64,000 bases of DNA from positions 1-64,000 of IMG/VR virus record IMGVR_UViG_3300005529_000003. One strand, 5' to 3'. The notes beneath the pieces were generated by a model, which worked only from the letters and a program-made list of their open reading frames with translations, did not search any database and was not told where the DNA came from. The stretch is from a virus. Positions 1,873 to 33,072 of this stretch are shown here, piece by piece. The position numbers and the translations under genes are program-made. Every line of letters starts with the position of its first letter. The first letter of the stretch is position 1.

Positions 1873-2077
1873 GACGTCTGCGGCGTGGACAGCGTAGCGA
1901 GAAGTTCTGACCTTCTCGAATGGTACACGCGGTAGTGTAGTTGGGCTAATTGATCGCAGGGTCATCAAGCAGTCCTGGGACTCTCATGTCGAGCTTGAAT
2001 CTGACTACTTGCCAAAACAACAACACAAGAACTATGTTCATGAACTTGTGAGTCGGTGCAATTCCGATCGGACGTCT
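1873..2077 (+). ncRNA. About 205-nt tRNA-like RNA with expanded D, anticodon and variable arms
   Basis: GACGTCT/GGACGTC 7-bp stem, GCGTG/CACGC D stem, GTCGG-TGCAATT-CCGAT T arm, CACAAG/CTTGTG arm. Confidence 0.65.
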
Positions 2078-2086
2078 TTTACTTAC

Positions 2087-2238
2087 GCGGGTATAGCTCA
2101 GTTGGTTAGAGCGCGTGACTGATAATCACGAGGTCGGGCGCTGATCCCATAACGGAATTGATCACCTGTTATGAATCTAGGCGGCTACTATGAGGCATAT
2201 GACTCACAAGTAGATTGGTTCGACTCCCCCTACCCGCT
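2087..2238 (+). tRNA. tRNA-Ile(GAT) with a 78-nt insertion in the T stem
   Basis: GCGGGTA/TACCCGC acceptor, canonical D arm, CGTGA-CTGATAA-TCACG, GGG[2139-2216]GG-TTCGACT-CCCCC. Confidence 0.85.
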
Positions 2239-27497: not shown

Positions 27498-27595
27498 ACT
27501 TCTCCCCGCCTTTCTCCCGGTCGTTGAGCGTAAATAAAAAGTCCTCTCTTCTCCTTGATGAAGAAGAGAGGACTTTTTTTCGATACTCAGCACGC

Positions 27596-29257
27596 TTAAA
27601 ACGGGAATTCGACTTCCTGCTTCTTCGCCTTCTCTGTAAAGCGGAGCAGCTTGAAGATCGGCTGACTTAAGAAGTTCATCATGCCGTCGAGCGGCGTCTG
27701 ATCCTTCTTCTCCTGCTGAGTCTTCGTCTCCTCTCCTCGGAGTAGCCCCTTGAGGATCGAGGGATCGAAGCCGCTGACGAGGAAGCAGCCCTTGTCCGTC
27801 GCGAGGCACGGAAAGTCGGTCGTCTTCGCCCCGTTGACGTGCCACCAGATGATCCGCATCCCAGGCAGACCGCAAGCGGCGAGCTTTTGTCTCGCTTCTT
27901 CGTAGTTCGTCTGAGCGTTGTGATACGATCTTGCCGGCGTGCTGGCGGGGTTGAACTGCATGTCACTGACGACGAGTAGCGTTGACGGAAACGCCTCAAT
28001 AGGAGCCGAGGGGTTCTTGGCCCTTACACGGCACACGGCGTCGATCAGCGATTGGAAGTTCGTACTCCCCATTGCAGTCGGCAGTGACTTGATTTGCCTG
28101 AGCCGCTGCGTGAACGTCCCTGCGAGCTTCACGACCGTCGAGGTGTCGCTGAACATCGCTACGGCGTCCTTGCAGATCCCCGTGTTCAGCATCGAGAAGG
28201 CCACCCCGAGCGACAGGCAGACGTCGATCGGCCTGACCCCCTTGATCAGCTCACACCATCCCATCGATGCGGACGTGTCGAGGCCCACCAGGACGTCTCC
28301 GAGGCAGTGACCCTTGAGCGACTCCAGGCACGTCTCCCACTGCTTGTCGTAGAGCATGTTCTGAATCATGTTCTCCGAACGCTCTGCGGCCCTGCAAAGC
28401 TCGTACGGCTGACCTGTGAACTTCACTCTCCGCTGCTTCTCGAGCCACACACCGAAATCCTCGAACCTTCCGTGGCGCTCGATCCACGACTTCTTGTCTT
28501 GCTTCCCCTTCTGCGAGATCGCGTTCATCAACGCCTTGCCGGGGATCTTGGAGAAGTCGATAAGGTCCCATTTCTTCTGCTGCATCATTCGCTGCCAGAT
28601 GTGAGCCGGGCCAGCGGACTTCAGCTTGCGGTAGTCCTTCTCAGAGAAGCCACAGAAGGCGCAGAGGTCTTTCGCAAAGCCGATTCTCGCCTTGTCTCGC
28701 TCGCTCCTGGCCTTCTTGAACGACCGCATCGTGGGTAGATACTTCAGCAGCAGGGCTTCGTCCAGTGAAACGGCGACCAGGGAAGTCAGCAGCGTTCGGT
28801 TGACCGCAGTCAGGAGAGGCGGCTGGAGGAGGTCTTTCCACGACCCAAACACGGGAACGAGGTCGATGTTGTGTCGCAGCAGCTCGGCGTCGTTGGCGGC
28901 GAGCCATACGAGGCACTTGTAGAACTCGTCACGCCGGCCCATTCCCGTAGCGACTTCTTCGGGGCAGGTTGGGGGTTCGATTCCCTCCGGTCTGTTCGGC
29001 TTCCTCGTGATCAGTCGGAGCCCGAAGATCACCTTCAGGGCAGTCTCCCGATCGTCCTGGAAGATCGCTTCCATGTCCTTGTCTACGGCGGCTTGAGAGC
29101 GGCCGTTGTAAGTTCCACACTTTGAGAAGTATTCGAGACATCGAGCGTACTTCTCGTTGACGCCGCCGACTGCACTGTTTGAAACGGCACCGTTCCATGT
29201 CATCCCGTCCTTCCTTGTGGCGTTCTCATCTTTCAGATCGTTCATGAAGTAACTCAC
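27596..29257 (-). CDS. DUF2828-family Ro60/TROVE-like protein with vWA domain
   Basis: TWNGA, GMGRRDEF, FGSWKDL, IDFSKIPGKA; MIDAS residues LDTSASM, STNFQ, VSDMQF; IIWWHV; LVSGFDP. Confidence 0.8.
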   Translation of the reverse strand: MSYFMNDLKDENATRKDGMTWNGAVSNSAVGGVNEKYARCLEYFSKCGTYNGRSQAAVDKDMEAIFQDDRETALKVIFGLRLITRKPNRPEGIEPPTCPEEVATGMGRRDEFYKCLVWLAANDAELLRHNIDLVPVFGSWKDLLQPPLLTAVNRTLLTSLVAVSLDEALLLKYLPTMRSFKKARSERDKARIGFAKDLCAFCGFSEKDYRKLKSAGPAHIWQRMMQQKKWDLIDFSKIPGKALMNAISQKGKQDKKSWIERHGRFEDFGVWLEKQRRVKFTGQPYELCRAAERSENMIQNMLYDKQWETCLESLKGHCLGDVLVGLDTSASMGWCELIKGVRPIDVCLSLGVAFSMLNTGICKDAVAMFSDTSTVVKLAGTFTQRLRQIKSLPTAMGSTNFQSLIDAVCRVRAKNPSAPIEAFPSTLLVVSDMQFNPASTPARSYHNAQTNYEEARQKLAACGLPGMRIIWWHVNGAKTTDFPCLATDKGCFLVSGFDPSILKGLLRGEETKTQQEKKDQTPLDGMMNFLSQPIFKLLRFTEKAKKQEVEFPF

Positions 29258-29305
29258 GATCTTCTTCTCTTTCTTCTCTAGTGGTTGCTTTAACCGCTCT
29301 TCTTG

Positions 29306-29566
29306 TTACGCACACCGTCGCATCGGAGGCTTTTTGTTTTGCGGCGTAATGGTGAACTGCGGGAAGCACCTCTTGCATCCAACGTTCCCGCAGTTGCTTG
29401 AGCCTTCGTGGCCGCTCTTCTTTACGCCGCTACCGGCTCTCGGTTGTTTCTTTCGCCGACGTCCTGTGCCTGCATAAGAAGCGTAGAGAGCTTTCTTCGC
29501 CGCTTTCATCTGTTTCTTTGCCGCTTTACGCTTTTCCGCTCGGCGTTTCTTTGATGCTGCTCCCAT
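29306..29566 (-). CDS. Very basic small protein with a CGNVGCxxC motif
   Basis: K/R-rich; AAGGA upstream. Confidence 0.6.
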   Translation of the reverse strand: MGAASKKRRAEKRKAAKKQMKAAKKALYASYAGTGRRRKKQPRAGSGVKKSGHEGSSNCGNVGCKRCFPQFTITPQNKKPPMRRCA

Positions 29567-29600
29567 GAGATTCCTTTTCTTTCTTCTTGTGGAAATAAAA

Positions 29601-29648
29601 CAGAACGCTTAACCGATTGCATTGGTAAGAAGTTGCTGTGAGCGTTCT
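29601..29648 (-). ncRNA. ACAGCA-motif small RNA
   Basis: AGAACGCT-CACAGCAAC...AGCGTTCT-G. Confidence 0.75.
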
Positions 29649-29657
29649 TTGTCTTGT

Positions 29658-29867
29658 TCACCCTGCTGATTCTTTCACGACTTTGTAGACTCGTCTCTCG
29701 TCACTCAATAGTTTCTCGAGATCTGCGAGATTGTCATTTTTAACACTGAAGGCCCACCGATCGCTATTAACGAGTGGGTGGGCTTTTACCTCCTGGTTGT
29801 TCGTCCAGTGCCACCACATTGCGCTCAGTACTCCGTAGTATTCAACAATCACCAATGAATGTGTCAT
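29658..29867 (-). CDS. Hypothetical protein
   Basis: MTHSLVIVEYY; GAGG upstream. Confidence 0.5.
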   Translation of the reverse strand: MTHSLVIVEYYGVLSAMWWHWTNNQEVKAHPLVNSDRWAFSVKNDNLADLEKLLSDERRVYKVVKESAG

Positions 29868-29883
29868 TTGTTGAAACCTCTTT

Positions 29884-30081
29884 TCAACACTGGTCGTTGA
29901 CTGCTGGTACTGGCTTTTCGATTTTCGTGTCTCGGTCGAGGAGTTCGTCCCGAACGATGTTGACATCCGGAGGAGCCTCAATCCCGATGCGGATTCGATT
30001 TCCTCGGACTTCGAGAATCTTCACCTTTATGTCTCCATCAATGATCAACGATTCGCCGACCTTGCGAGAGAGTACGAGCAT
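29884..30081 (-). CDS. csrA: Carbon storage regulator CsrA/RsmA
   Basis: MLVLSRKVGESLII...IRIGIEAPPDVNIVRDEL. Confidence 0.92.
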   Translation of the reverse strand: MLVLSRKVGESLIIDGDIKVKILEVRGNRIRIGIEAPPDVNIVRDELLDRDTKIEKPVPAVNDQC

Positions 30082-30083
30082 AT

Positions 30084-30290
30084 TCACTTTCCCTTCCGAC
30101 TCTTGTAGATGTAACCATTCACTCCGATGATGATCTTCTCACCATTGAACTCGGCTTCTGTCGTCTTGTTGCCATGTGTGGACGCCACGACGAGCGTCTT
30201 GCCACTCGCTGACTCGCGGGCCTCCTTGTAAAGTGGTAGCCGGATCACTAGTTCGTCGCCTTCAATCTTCGCTGAAACTTCATTCGCCAT
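30084..30290 (-). CDS. Conserved small hypothetical protein
   Basis: SASGKTLVVASTHGN motif; AAGGAG upstream. Confidence 0.7.
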   Translation of the reverse strand: MANEVSAKIEGDELVIRLPLYKEARESASGKTLVVASTHGNKTTEAEFNGEKIIIGVNGYIYKSRKGK

Positions 30291-30316
30291 CCATCGTCTC
30301 CTTCTAGTGTTAAAAA

Positions 30317-30545
30317 CGAAACGCCGTAGGGTTCTTTTGCTTTACCGTTAAGCTACTCCCCCTGAGTACCGCTACGGTAAATACCGTATAACGCCCGCGG
30401 CCGGCGACTCGATTAAAACTTCGACTGTTAAACGATTCGCGACTCGTAACCGTCTGCGTAGACTATCGAGCGTGATCTAGAGGGGGAGGCGGGAGTCGAA
30501 CCCGCATCAAAAGATTAATGTAAGTAAGTTTGCTGTCGGCGTTTC
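30317..30545 (-). ncRNA. YrlA-like permuted tRNA-mimic RNA with a 117-nt acceptor-loop insert
   Basis: Stem+GACAGCAA, then T arm GCGGG-TTCGACT-CCCGC, CTCCCCCT...AGGGGGAG, D arm TAGCTTAACGGTAAAGC, closing stem. Confidence 0.8.
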
Positions 30546-30563
30546 TTGTTATGTGCAAGAAAA

Positions 30564-30675
30564 CGAAACACCGTCTTTTCATCTTTCGCGTCTACCAGTT
30601 CCGCCACTCAAAAGCTTTCGCTGTTGAGGTGGGACTCGAACCCACATGATAAAGAGTTAATGCTGTTGGTGTTTC
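30564..30675 (-). ncRNA. YrlA-like permuted tRNA-mimic RNA
   Basis: Stem+AACAGCA, T arm GTGGG-TTCGAGT-CCCAC, GAAA-capped acceptor, D arm TGGCGGAACTGGTAGACGC, closing stem. Confidence 0.85.
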
Positions 30676-30685
30676 TGAGAAGGTT

Positions 30686-30771
30686 AGACAGCAACTCCAG
30701 GCTCTTTACCTTTGGCGGGACTGGCTTCTCGCCAGTCCCGCCTACGCATTGCACGTACGGAGTTGCTGTCT
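30686..30771. ncRNA. Self-complementary ACAGCAA element
   Basis: 13-bp inverted repeat AGACAGCAACTCC/GGAGTTGCTGTCT around a 12-bp GC hairpin. Confidence 0.6.
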
Positions 30772-30781
30772 GTGTATTAAA

Positions 30782-30831
30782 CGGAACGCTTGACCTTTGG
30801 TGATGGTGGTTGAGGTTGCTGTGAGCGTTCC
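30782..30831 (-). ncRNA. ACAGCA-motif small RNA
   Basis: GGAACGCT-CACAGCAAC...AGCGTTCC-G. Confidence 0.75.
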
Positions 30832-30977
30832 TGGCTTCTGTACGGCCTTAAAGTTTTCTCTCCTTCACTGAGGACAAGAGAAGACTTTTCACGGAGGAGG
30901 ACGCGCCGTGAGTGACAACATCATGAGGGCGACGAGCAACAACGCGGCGATGTACGGAATCGCCTCAACGATACGTT

Positions 30978-31451
30978 TCATTTGAGTTCTCCTCGGGCTT
31001 TCCTGAGCGAGTTCTGGTACTCTCTCGGATGTTTGCTCTTCCACTTCACCCACGCTGGTAGAAGGATCTTATATGCCCCACAGCACGTCGGGCTTTCGGC
31101 ATATTGTAGTGTGTACTTGTGTTTATCCTCTATAATTACGAAAAGACGACTGGGTAAAGCTGCTGGCGATTGTTTTGAAGTCTCGTTTACGCACCCATCA
31201 AAATTTTGCCAGTCAAACGAAAGCGTGTCCCATCTACTCTTCGTTGTGCCCCACCTTCCTGATTCATAAGCTTCCTGACTAACCGTGTGGATAAAAGGTC
31301 TTAGCTCAAGCTCCCACACCCACCGCCAGAACTCAGCCTCCTCCAGGCGGTCGTTGTCCTCGAGCCAGTCGCAGTAGTACGGGAGGTCCTTGAGTTTCCC
31401 CTGCTCGATCCTGGCGAGAAAGCCCTCCTCTGTTCTTTCTGTGGTGGTCAT
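30978..31451 (-). CDS. TIGR02996-like domain protein
   Basis: EEGFLARI...YYCDWLEDNDRLEEAEFWRW...LPSRLF. Confidence 0.7.
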   Translation of the reverse strand: MTTTERTEEGFLARIEQGKLKDLPYYCDWLEDNDRLEEAEFWRWVWELELRPFIHTVSQEAYESGRWGTTKSRWDTLSFDWQNFDGCVNETSKQSPAALPSRLFVIIEDKHKYTLQYAESPTCCGAYKILLPAWVKWKSKHPREYQNSLRKARGELK

Positions 31452-31604
31452 CTCTAGTACCTCGTATCTTGTTCTGAGTGGATCAAATCCTCGCTGTCTC
31501 TGAACTCGACGTCGGCGTACGTCAACGACTCTTCGCCTGAGACTTTCTTACCTGCGTGAAATAACATCCAGGAGGCGAAGAGTAGAGGCAGGGCGATGAG
31601 TTGC

Positions 31605-32054
31605 CTAATAAACCAGAGCGCTTTCATTCTTTGCTCTTTCTTGTTTTTCTTCTCGCCATTCTTTCCAGGCGTTGAAGAGTGCCTCTTCTGCGTTCTGAAG
31701 AGATGAAAACCCTTTCCATCCTTCTTGTTTTCGTTCCCTCTTCACTTTGTCGAAGAGTTCCTTACAGAGGTAATCTCCTCTGTTCTCTTTAACTCCTATT
31801 GGTTCCCCAGGCCAGTAAGACCAATCTTCCTTGCCGTCACCTGTTGTCGTTCCTCCATATCCGTAGAGAGAAGGCAGCAGCTTCCTCTCAAGCAGCCACT
31901 CCTGAAATTGTGCGAAGTAGTCGTTGTCTTCCTCGTCGCGAATCCACCAGATGAACGCCTCCTTGCTTGAAGGTGCTCTTAGCCTTTCGCAGCGTTCATC
32001 CCAGTAGTCCTTAACCTCTTGTTCGAGGATCTTGTACCAGTCACTCCTCGTCAT
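31605..32054 (-). CDS. Divergent TIGR02996-like protein
   Basis: MTRSDWYKILE...WIRDEEDNDYFAQF...AEEALFNA. Confidence 0.6.
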   Translation of the reverse strand: MTRSDWYKILEQEVKDYWDERCERLRAPSSKEAFIWWIRDEEDNDYFAQFQEWLLERKLLPSLYGYGGTTTGDGKEDWSYWPGEPIGVKENRGDYLCKELFDKVKRERKQEGWKGFSSLQNAEEALFNAWKEWREEKQERAKNESALVY

Positions 32055-32526
32055 TGATCTTCTCCGGCGTCTTCTGTGTCTCTTGCTTTTCCCACGGGTA
32101 ACGAGCGGCGAGGCACGCATTCACGGACAACGGCTCGAGGTCCTCCCACATCTTCTGCACCTTCTCTTCGGGGACGCCGTGCGCGTTCGGGTAGCCGCCC
32201 TCGCAACGAATGAAGACGATTGTCGCGTTGTACTTCATGCCCAACTCGACGTAAGGGCGAGCTTCCCAAGCCTTGATGTTCGTGTTGTCCACGATCACGT
32301 TGTGCCCGTTCATCAGCAACGCCTCAACGCGGATCTGGTTGTAGCGGTGGAACTCCTGGAGCTTCTCGGGCTTGAAGACGTACGCTCCGGTCACATTGTC
32401 GATGAAGTACTCGTCCGTCGAGCAGATCTTGAAGCGAGGTTGTGCGTTCCTCCAGCCGTTGTTCAACTCGTTGGCGAATGTGGACTTCCCCGAGCCTGGC
32501 GGGCCTTGCATGATCACGAGGTACAT
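32041..32526 (-). CDS. N4BP2-like polynucleotide kinase (AAA_33)
   Basis: MQGPPGSGKST, CSTDEYF, VIVDNTN..AWE..PY, NAHGVP. Confidence 0.8.
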   Translation of the reverse strand: MYLVIMQGPPGSGKSTFANELNNGWRNAQPRFKICSTDEYFIDNVTGAYVFKPEKLQEFHRYNQIRVEALLMNGHNVIVDNTNIKAWEARPYVELGMKYNATIVFIRCEGGYPNAHGVPEEKVQKMWEDLEPLSVNACLAARYPWEKQETQKTPEKINDEE

Positions 32527-32951: not shown

Positions 32952-33031
32952 TAGGGCCGGCAGGAATCGAACCTGCCTTCGGCGTTGATTAGCTATATCG
33001 TCGCCTTAGTCTAGTTAGCACCAGCAACCCT
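32952..33031 (-). ncRNA. Non-canonical tRNA-like element
   Basis: AGGGTTG/CGGCCCT acceptor, GCAGG-TTCGATT-CCTGC T arm; atypical D and anticodon arms. Confidence 0.55.
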
Positions 33032-33037
33032 ATAAAA

Positions 33038-33072
33038 CCTCCCGACGCTTCTCTTGCGATGGCGTCGGGAGG
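33038..33072 (-). terminator. Intrinsic terminator-like hairpin
   Basis: CCTCCCGACGC...GCGTCGGGAGG with a T run on the minus strand. Confidence 0.6.

What the first reader, a model, noticed from the sequence alone, without database searches (positions are those of the whole stretch)
30317..30545. Second permuted tRNA mimic carrying a 117-nt structured domain on the acceptor helix
The topology matches the compact copy, but the 8-bp acceptor helix (CTCCCCCT/AGGGGGAG) encloses 30364-30480, which has its own helices (CTCGAT/ATCGAG, TACGGT/ACCGTA). Inference: the insert is an extra effector domain, or a spacer that RNase P and 3' processing remove to give a two-piece tRNA-like RNA, as in permuted tmRNA genes.
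Basis: partly seen in the sequence, partly recalled or inferred. Interest (0 to 1): 0.72.

Follow-up and report, generated by a model that had tools for sequence, protein, structure and literature searches.

The report
Phage Y-like tRNA mimic, oversized loop
This is a real small-RNA gene of a soil phage: an inside-out tRNA look-alike on a conserved docking handle, most likely a partner of the phage's Ro60-shaped protein. Its only unusual feature is a 117-base filler in the loop that seals the acceptor helix, and that filler shows no sign of being a folded domain.

Summary
On the minus strand, 30545-30318 reads: 9-bp closing stem, ACAGCAA box, 5-bp anticodon-like stem, perfect T arm, 7-bp acceptor helix (8 with A30363:U30481), U8/A9 and D arm. 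The acceptor helix encloses 30480-30364 (117 nt).

It is one of five stem-plus-ACAGCAA "handle" RNAs in this complete 94.8-kb phage. Four lie upstream of, and co-oriented with, a 553-aa DUF2828/DUF7788 protein. That protein's predicted fold matches Ro60 (Z 18.6 over 418 residues).

The same handle RNAs occur beside homologous genes in many phage loci. All 61 hits of my covariance model lie on the gene strand, and 18 of 20 core pairs covary. This scan has already noted the family on several other genomes.

The "structured domain" reading is not supported. The insert alone folds no better than shuffles (z +0.55). It has no ORF, no Rfam match, no second copy in the genome and no relative anywhere I searched.

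Acceptor-loop length varies widely in the family: mostly 3-19 nt, about 41 and 60 nt in locus L100. This copy is the extreme.

Removal of the spacer by RNase P is plausible by analogy with Mycobacterium smegmatis YrlA, but it is untested. No RNA data exist.

It is a new variant of a known kind and of moderate interest.

The parts
30537..30545 (-). Closing ('handle') stem, 5' strand GAAACGCCG
   Evidence: Pairs 9/9 with 30318-30326. The same position holds a covarying 8-bp stem in family members.
30530..30536 (-). Conserved ACAGCAA box directly 3' of the stem's 5' strand
   Evidence: CAGCA is invariant in alignment A3 of 20 members. It is present in all five modules of this phage.
30514..30529 (-). 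16-nt 5' linker, largely shared with the compact copy (CAUUAA...)
30506..30513 (-). Anticodon-stem-like strand CUUUU plus 3-nt variable region GAU
   Evidence: Pairs 5/5 with AAAAG at 30334-30338. The equivalent stem covaries in the family.
30489..30505 (-). T arm GCGGG-UUCGACU-CCCGC
   Evidence: It differs from the compact copy's GUGGG/CCCAC by a compensatory pair change.
30481..30488 (-). Acceptor 3' strand CUCCCCC plus U at the discriminator position (30481); CUA follows, not CCA
30364..30480 (-). 117-nt insert closing the acceptor helix: an expanded acceptor loop or spacer
   Evidence: z +0.55 alone. No ORF. Unique in the genome. No match elsewhere. Present in an independent Logan assembly of the same sample.
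30356..30363 (-). A(-1) plus acceptor 5' strand GGGGGAG. The predicted RNase P site lies between 30363 and 30362.
   Evidence: 7/7 Watson-Crick with 30482-30488. The cleavage site is inference only.
30339..30355 (-). U8, A9 and D arm GCUU-AACGGUA-AAGC
30327..30338 (-). AAAAG (partner of CUUUU) and 7-nt 3' linker AACCCUA
30312..30326 (-). Closing stem 3' strand CGGCGUUUC, then G and a U run (the family's usual stem-G/UG-U tail)
30565..30675 (-). Paralogue: compact tRNA-mimic copy on the same kind of handle
   Evidence: Own model R1 61.2 bits, though this copy was one of R1's 20 training sequences. Rfam YrlA 25.4 bits, E 0.013.
30783..30831 (-). Mini handle module (stem plus CACAGCAAC, no tRNA part)
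29602..29648 (-). Mini handle module between the CsrA-like gene and the Ro60-like gene
   Evidence: R1 24.5 bits
27596..29257 (-). Ro60-shaped protein gene (DUF2828 + DUF7788, phrog_850), the presumed protein partner
   Evidence: Pfam and PHROGs. AF2 model pLDDT 82.5. Foldseek's top 13 hits are all Ro60. VIA Z 18.6, rmsd 4.0, 418 aligned residues to 1yvr.

Best explanation
The element is a phage non-coding RNA gene of the Y-RNA type, laid out like YrlA. It is a circularly permuted tRNA body (T arm, closed acceptor helix, D arm, short anticodon-like stem) mounted on a conserved handle (closing stem plus ACAGCAA box). The handle most likely docks it to the Ro60-shaped DUF2828 protein encoded 1.1 kb downstream.

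It is one of four such RNAs in the leader of that operon, probably made from a common transcript.

The 117-nt segment is an expansion of the acceptor loop, the most length-variable site in this RNA family. It is a spacer rather than a folded effector domain.

This copy keeps a canonical 7-bp acceptor stacked on a 5-bp T stem with an intact elbow. The most likely fate of the spacer is therefore cleavage by host RNase P 5' of G30362, followed by 3' trimming back to U30481 (possibly with CCA addition). That would give a two-piece RNA held together by the acceptor, anticodon-like and handle helices.

Shown: anatomy, family membership, gene association, the Ro60 fold, and the lack of excess structure or conservation in the insert. 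Inferred: protein binding, co-transcription and the processing step. On its own I put the processing step at about 0.35-0.4.
For: Anatomy read directly.

The handle plus tRNA core matches a family found beside homologues of the protein. RNAalifold on 20 members shows 18 of 20 pairs with compensatory changes. Closing stems are 7-8/8 paired with different sequences in 21 of 25 members. Model R1 hits: 32 of 32 (E<0.01) and 29 of 29 (E<1) lie on the gene strand.

The protein is Ro60-shaped.

The compact and long copies differ by compensatory pair changes: GUGGG/CCCAC versus GCGGG/CCCGC in the T stem, and GAAACACC/GGUGUUUC versus GAAACGCC/GGCGUUUC in the closing stem. Both therefore stayed under structural selection.

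Re-permuted in silico, 18 of 23 members, including both window copies, are called tRNAs by ARAGORN.

Acceptor-loop lengths in the family are mostly 3-19 nt, with about 41 and 60 nt in L100 and 117 here.

The insert has z +0.55, no ORF and no homologue.

Precedents: M. smegmatis YrlA with a 7-bp acceptor is cut by RNase P, nibbled and CCA-tailed, and both halves stay on Rsr (PMC4201824; bioRxiv 10.1101/312249). Thermus phage phiLo has two Y-like RNAs upstream of its Ro60 gene (PMC12135203).
Against: There is no transcript or end-mapping data of any kind, so expression, co-transcription and cleavage are all unproven.

Rfam YrlA scores only 15.4 bits on this copy (gathering score 69). The published Ro60-binding motif GNCGAA(N)G is replaced by ACAGCAA, so binding to the protein rests on co-occurrence alone.

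A30363 can pair with U30481, giving an 8-bp helix, and no CCA is encoded (the sequence is UCUA). From general knowledge of RNase P, both features can weaken or shift cleavage.

Lack of excess folding energy does not exclude a protein-bound or tertiary-structured insert. The L100 inserts do contain good hairpins.
Confidence: 0.6

Rival explanations
1. The 117-nt segment stays in the mature RNA as a functional extra domain, for example a binding platform for another protein or RNA, displayed at the end of the acceptor arm of the tRNA mimic.
For: Two helices (CUCGAU/AUCGAG and UACGGU/ACCGUA) appear in the MFE and centroid folds of the full RNA. Relatives in L100 carry inserts of about 41 and 60 nt at the same site, with clear hairpins. 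The effector module of Y RNAs is known to be variable.
Against: The insert alone is no more stable than shuffles (z +0.55; the centroid keeps one 6-bp hairpin). There is no Rfam match, no second copy or relative and no sequence likeness to the L100 inserts. By my reading there are no GGA motifs that would fit the neighbouring CsrA-like protein.
Confidence: 0.2
2. The copy is a paralogue disrupted by a recent insertion of junk DNA into its acceptor loop and is on its way to decay. It has no function of its own.
For: The insert is unique, unstructured and unconserved. The phage has four other handle RNAs that could cover the function.
Against: Every helix of the core is perfect: 9/9, 5/5, 5/5, 7/7 and 4/4. 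The copy differs from its sister by compensatory, not disruptive, changes. An insertion in a terminal loop need not disturb the fold.
Confidence: 0.12
3. It is a true permuted gene for a translation RNA. This would be either a two-piece tmRNA or a circularly permuted tRNA (ARAGORN reads Gly, CCC, after re-permutation) that is re-joined and matured into a decoding tRNA.
For: The topology matches permuted tmRNA and permuted tRNA genes. There is a weak tmRNA_permuted hit (16.1 bits, E 1.4). The re-permuted core is called tRNA-Gly(ccc), with U at the discriminator position. A P-loop polynucleotide-kinase-like gene lies nearby.
Against: ARAGORN finds no tmRNA. The third acceptor pair is G3:C70, not G3:U70. 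Only about 45 nt follow the acceptor 5' strand, so there is no room for a tag frame or pseudoknots. The would-be anticodon loop has A33 and U37 instead of U33 and a purine at 37. The anticodon call is arbitrary: the same trick on relatives gives assignments such as AAA, AGU, AUA and a stop. Mini modules carry the same handle with no tRNA part.
Confidence: 0.03

Closest known systems
YrlA (Y RNA-like A; Rfam RF02553), especially Mycobacterium smegmatis YrlA (Chen et al. 2014, PMC4201824; structure in Wang et al. 2018, bioRxiv 10.1101/312249)
   Same: T arm, then closed acceptor helix, then D arm, on a stem formed by the RNA's two ends. The tRNA elbow nucleotides are present. It is encoded next to, and upstream of, a Ro60-type protein gene, in tandem with a second Y-like RNA. 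It has a 7-bp acceptor like the M. smegmatis RNA, which RNase P cleaves. Variable acceptor-stem length is already noted for YrlA.
   Different: It fails the Rfam model (15.4 bits for this copy, 25.4 for the compact copy, against a gathering score of 69). The protein-binding end carries ACAGCAA instead of GNCGAA(N)G. The partner is DUF2828/DUF7788, not a Pfam TROVE protein. The acceptor loop is 117 nt; I found no published YrlA with such a loop in the papers I could read.
Stem-plus-ACAGCAA 'handle' RNAs beside DUF2828 Ro60-shaped proteins in phages
   Same: Same handle, same gene association and orientation, same tRNA-mimic cargo, and arrays of several copies.
   Different: Acceptor loops elsewhere are mostly 3-19 nt, with about 41 and 60 nt in L100. 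This copy's 117 nt is the largest seen in 160 loci.
Thermus phage phiLo Ro60 with Yrl1/Yrl2 (PMC12135203; PDB 9KOP, 9L5Y)
   Same: A phage-encoded Ro60-fold protein with two Y-like RNA genes just upstream. The phiLo protein is among the best structural matches (Z 16.9 and 15.5).
   Different: The phiLo RNAs were found through the CGAA motif. No tRNA-like domain or long insert is described for them in that paper.
Circularly permuted two-piece tmRNA genes (Rfam RF01849, RF04321)
   Same: The T arm and acceptor 3' strand lie upstream of the acceptor 5' strand, with an intervening segment that is cut out, and the ends pair.
   Different: No G3:U70, no tag reading frame, no pseudoknots, no encoded CCA. 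16 bits against a gathering score of 47. ARAGORN is negative.
Circularly permuted tRNA genes of Cyanidioschyzon merolae (Soma et al. 2007, as cited in bioRxiv 10.1101/312249)
   Same: The acceptor is initially closed by a loop, the ends pair next to the anticodon stem, and RNase P/Z open the acceptor.
   Different: Those need a bulge-helix-bulge motif and a splicing endonuclease and yield a decoding tRNA. Here the would-be anticodon loop is non-canonical and the ends carry a conserved protein-type handle.

Membership tests
YrlA (Rfam RF02553) | Score at or above the family's gathering threshold (69 bits) | tested here: not met
   15.4 bits, E 9.5, misaligned across the insert. The compact sister copy scores 25.4 bits, E 0.013. 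The model also gives sub-threshold matches in 6 of 14 control genomes.
YrlA (Rfam RF02553) | Permuted tRNA layout: T arm, closed acceptor-like helix, D arm, and the anticodon-stem position formed towards the RNA's ends | tested here: met
   Direct reading. ARAGORN calls a cloverleaf after in-silico re-permutation.
YrlA (Rfam RF02553) | Ro60-binding motif GNCGAA(N0-1)G on the 5' strand of the terminal stem (Chen et al. 2014) | tested here: not met
   The position holds GCCG-ACAGCAA. The family-wide conserved box is (A)CAGCAA.
YrlA (Rfam RF02553) | Encoded next to a Ro60/Rsr (TROVE) gene | tested here: inconclusive
   The neighbour has no Pfam TROVE hit (it hits DUF2828 and DUF7788). It does have a full-length Ro60 fold (Z 18.6, top 10 all Ro60).
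ACAGCAA-handle Y-like RNAs of DUF2828 loci | 8-9-bp terminal stem, (A)CAGCAA directly after its 5' strand, G/UG plus U-rich tail after its 3' strand | tested here: met
ACAGCAA-handle Y-like RNAs of DUF2828 loci | Lies near, and on the same strand as, a DUF2828/DUF7788 gene | tested here: met
   It lies 1.06 kb upstream on the same strand. In other loci 61 of 61 model hits are on the gene strand.
ACAGCAA-handle Y-like RNAs of DUF2828 loci | Full-length match to a covariance model of the tRNA-type members (R1) | tested here: inconclusive
   27.7 bits, E 0.014, but the 3' half is misaligned because the model cannot span 117 nt. The handle, T arm and D arm match piecewise.
ACAGCAA-handle Y-like RNAs of DUF2828 loci | Physical binding to the Ro60-shaped protein | not testable with these tools
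   Needs co-purification or EMSA.
Two-piece (permuted) tmRNA | Rfam gathering score, G3:U70 alanine identity pair, tag reading frame and pseudoknots in the coding piece, encoded CCA | tested here: not met
   16.1 bits against 47. No ARAGORN tmRNA call. G3:C70. About 45 nt after the acceptor 5' strand. UCUA after the acceptor.
RNase P substrate (pre-tRNA-like) | 7-bp acceptor coaxial with a 5-bp T stem, plus an intact T-loop/D-loop elbow | tested here: met
   7/7 and 5/5 pairs. UUCGACU T loop. GG in the D loop. U8 and A14 present.
RNase P substrate (pre-tRNA-like) | Actual cleavage at -1/+1, with 3' trimming and CCA addition | not testable with these tools
   No RNA run holds this DNA. No CCA is encoded, and A(-1) can pair with U73.

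The most novel reading that the evidence does not exclude
The 117 nt is a true intervening spacer. Host RNase P and a 3' processing enzyme excise it. The result is a natural two-piece tRNA look-alike with a free, CCA-tailed acceptor end, clamped on a phage Ro60-like ring. This would be a second, phage-borne case of the M. smegmatis YrlA pathway.

Because it pairs two tRNA halves with matching acceptor strands across an inter-tRNA-sized spacer, it would also be a living intermediate of the proposed origin of YrlA from tandem tRNA genes.
Probability: 0.3. Interest if true: 0.65.

Novelty: new variant of a known kind. Interest (0 to 1): 0.45.

Why it matters
Y RNAs and Ro60 are conserved from bacteria to humans, yet what the tRNA-like module of bacterial and phage Y RNAs does is still unknown.

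The DUF2828-linked handle RNAs look like a large sister branch of that system in phages, and I found no paper describing them.

This copy combines a canonical acceptor helix with a long, apparently disposable spacer. That makes it a convenient natural test of whether such RNAs are opened by RNase P into two-piece, CCA-bearing tRNA mimics. It also bears on the idea that these RNAs arose from tandem tRNA genes.

If the spacer is simply an oversized loop, the finding is a minor structural variant of a family this scan has already met several times.

Tried and rejected
1. Conservation or covariation of the insert could not be tested because there are no close relatives.
- blastn of 27500-31500 against 50,697 phage records: no match.
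- Single-protein scan of IMG/VR: none. The nearest protein homologues are about 50-55% identical.
- A lineage-specific pattern for the 5' half in IMG/VR: 0 hits.
- The handle 16-mer gave 119 hits, none with the closing stem, so all are chance.
- The insert occurs only once in the phage genome.

2. Expression: no RNA holder is listed. The only run holding this DNA is the likely source soil metagenome. Laying its contigs showed only that an independent assembly contains the same sequence.

Contigs of the closest Logan/ENA homologues (P0002-P0036) could therefore not be fetched.

4. Long-insert candidates from my handle scan (L007, L041, L066, L068, L074, L076 and others) turned out to be tandem modules joined by chance stems, or lacked a D arm.

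5. Piecewise searches of the two halves with model R1 gave only weak hits: handle 13.4 bits, T arm 8.7, D arm 6.4.

6. The 'tRNA-Gly(CCC)' identity from the re-permutation is not meaningful. The same procedure gives arbitrary anticodons in relatives.

7. A tag-like frame I read by eye in the insert (nine codons starting GCA and ending UAA) lies in the segment that permuted tmRNAs discard. I rejected it as chance.

8. No promoter-like site on either strand, and no terminator-like site on the minus strand, was found in 29200-31100.

9. A paper search for DUF2828 returned only incidental mentions. The Sim et al. 2020 review (PMC10870794) is not held.

Full report
**What is there.** Read on the minus strand, 30545-30318 has the following parts, in order:
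- a 9-bp closing stem (GAAACGCCG, paired with CGGCGUUUC)
- an ACAGCAA box directly after the stem's 5' strand
- a 16-nt linker
- CUUUU, then GAU
- a perfect T arm (GCGGG-UUCGACU-CCCGC)
- the acceptor 3' strand CUCCCCC, then U
- 117 nt (30480-30364)
- A, then the acceptor 5' strand GGGGGAG
- U8 and A9
- a D arm (GCUU-AACGGUA-AAGC)
- AAAAG, which pairs with CUUUU
- a 7-nt linker, then the 3' strand of the closing stem, followed by G and a U run

ARAGORN and Rfam at gathering thresholds see nothing here, as expected for a permuted layout. At relaxed thresholds the compact neighbour (30675-30562) hits Rfam YrlA at 25.4 bits (E 0.013). The long copy gets only 15.4 bits for YrlA and 16.1 bits for tmRNA_permuted.

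**Context.** The window is part of a complete 94.8-kb phage record with terminal repeats, from a soil metagenome.

Downstream on the same strand lie a 68-aa ORF, a CsrA-like gene and a 553-aa ORF (27596-29257). The 553-aa ORF matches DUF2828, DUF7788 and phrog_850 'RNA-binding protein'.

Its AlphaFold model (pLDDT 82.5, pTM 0.85) matches Ro60 over its whole length. Foldseek's top 13 hits are all Ro60/TROVE structures, including Thermus phage phiLo Ro60. VIA-align gives Z 18.6, rmsd 4.0 and 418 aligned residues to 1yvr, and the ten best entries are all Ro60.

The phage has five stem-plus-ACAGCAA modules:
- 30831-30783, mini
- 30675-30565, tRNA mimic
- 30544-30319, this one
- 29648-29602, mini
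- 1637-1692, on the plus strand

The phage has no ordinary tRNA by ARAGORN.

**The family.** I fetched 160 loci around homologues of the protein. Beside those genes I found the same RNAs: an 8-bp terminal stem with different sequences but 7-8/8 pairs in 21 of 25 members, CAGCA(A) directly after it, and a tRNA-like core.

RNAalifold on 20 members finds the T, acceptor, D and anticodon-like stems, and 18 of 20 pairs show compensatory changes.

A covariance model (R1) gave 32 hits at E<0.01 in the viral loci and 29 at E<1 in the metagenome loci. All 61 lie on the strand of the protein gene.

Re-permuted in silico, 18 of 23 members, including both window copies, are called tRNAs by ARAGORN. The anticodon assignments are arbitrary.

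This scan has met the same handle family on several other genomes. I found no paper linking DUF2828 to RNA. The closest published systems are YrlA with Rsr (PMC4201824) and phage phiLo Ro60 with two upstream Y-like RNAs (PMC12135203).

**The insert.**
- Alone it folds to -31.1 kcal/mol against a shuffle mean of -33.1 (z +0.55; 140 of 200 shuffles do as well). The centroid keeps only the 6-bp UACGGU/ACCGUA hairpin.
- It has no ORF, no GGA motifs by my reading, no Rfam match and no second copy in the genome.
- It has no relative in any collection I could search.
- It is not an assembly artefact of one assembler. A 54-kb Logan contig from the same sample carries it identically.
- Across model-confirmed family members the acceptor loop is mostly 3-19 nt. 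Locus L100 has two members with about 41 and 60 nt that contain hairpins. This copy, at 117 nt, is the longest.

The site is therefore a known soft spot for length change. Published YrlA work also notes variable acceptor-stem length.

**Is the copy alive?** It shares its 5' half and its tail with the compact copy. Where the two differ in helices, the changes are compensatory: GUGGG/CCCAC versus GCGGG/CCCGC in the T stem, and GAAACACC/GGUGUUUC versus GAAACGCC/GGCGUUUC in the closing stem. Every helix of the core is perfect. This argues against a decaying pseudogene.

**Mechanism.**
- Shown: the anatomy, the family, the gene association, the Ro60 fold, and the absence of excess structure or conservation in the insert.
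- Inferred: the handle docks the RNA on the Ro60-like ring, the array is made from the operon leader, and the spacer is removed.

The processing idea rests on a precedent. M. smegmatis YrlA is the one YrlA with a 7-bp acceptor. It is cut by RNase P in vitro and in vivo, nibbled and CCA-tailed, and both halves stay bound to Rsr.

This copy has the same determinants: a 7-bp acceptor, a 5-bp T stem and an intact elbow. Against a clean canonical cut, A30363 can pair with U30481, and the acceptor is followed by CUA rather than CCA. I put excision at about 0.35-0.4, and the overall identification as a handle-type Y-like tRNA mimic at about 0.85.

**Rejected readings.**
- A tmRNA is excluded. There is no G3:U70, no room for a tag frame or pseudoknots, and it scores below threshold.
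- A decoding permuted tRNA is very unlikely. The would-be anticodon loop has A33 and U37, the same handle occurs on modules with no tRNA part, and no bacterial splicing endonuclease is known.

**Verdict.** The element is real and correctly described. It is a new variant (extreme acceptor-loop expansion) of a Y-RNA-like tRNA mimic family. The 'structured domain' claim is not supported, and the 'processed spacer' idea is reasonable but untested.

Noticed in passing
window 2012-2238 (+): Rfam tRNA hit of 45 bits at 2087-2238. It spans 152 nt because about 80 nt are inserted before the T-arm 3' side. ARAGORN misses it, or reads it only with a 1.9-kb 'intron'. A T-arm-like hairpin (about 2052-2068) lies just before it, and a mini ACAGCAA handle module is at 1637-1692 on the same strand.
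   Followed up: partly
window 29884-30087 (-): A CsrA-like gene (Pfam CsrA, E 2e-22) sits between the Y-like RNA array and the Ro60-like gene. I saw no GGA-rich decoy RNA nearby.
   Followed up: partly
window 30686-30771: A perfect 13-nt inverted repeat containing ACAGCAAC and its antisense brackets a GC hairpin. Its only Rfam matches are far below threshold (mir-5856, 16.5 bits against a gathering score of 90; MIR856, 14.3 against 297). It could mask or pair with the handle box of sibling RNAs.
   Followed up: no
window 32041-32526 (-) and 32952-33072 (-): A P-loop kinase of the AAA_33/KTI12 type (polynucleotide-kinase-like) lies downstream of another tRNA-like element. That element has an acceptor and a perfect T arm but an odd D/anticodon region.
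   Followed up: partly
L100:5661-6394 (+): Three tandem handle RNAs with a CUCAGCA box lie just after the Ro60-like gene. Two carry acceptor-loop inserts of about 41 and 60 nt with good hairpins. These are the nearest analogues of the 117-nt insert.
   Followed up: partly
window 30477-30481; L053:9311-9444; L054:4633-4765; L040:3643-3762: In several members the acceptor 3' strand is followed by N-CUAG (UCUAG here, ACUAG in L053 and L054, CCUAG in L040). L002 has ACCA and L046 has UCCA at that place. This may be a 3' processing cue or a degenerate CCA.
   Followed up: no
L092:1-160 and L118:8805-8975: A T arm followed by a C-rich acceptor-like strand, and then directly by a mini handle module. 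These may be nested modules or tRNA genes interleaved with handle RNAs. I did not resolve which.
   Followed up: no
L074:5586-5950; L011:5599-5875; L012:3660-3959; L013:5628-5869: Arrays of three or more handle modules lie head to tail, immediately before or after the Ro60-like gene. This suggests that multi-RNA precursors are the rule.
   Followed up: no
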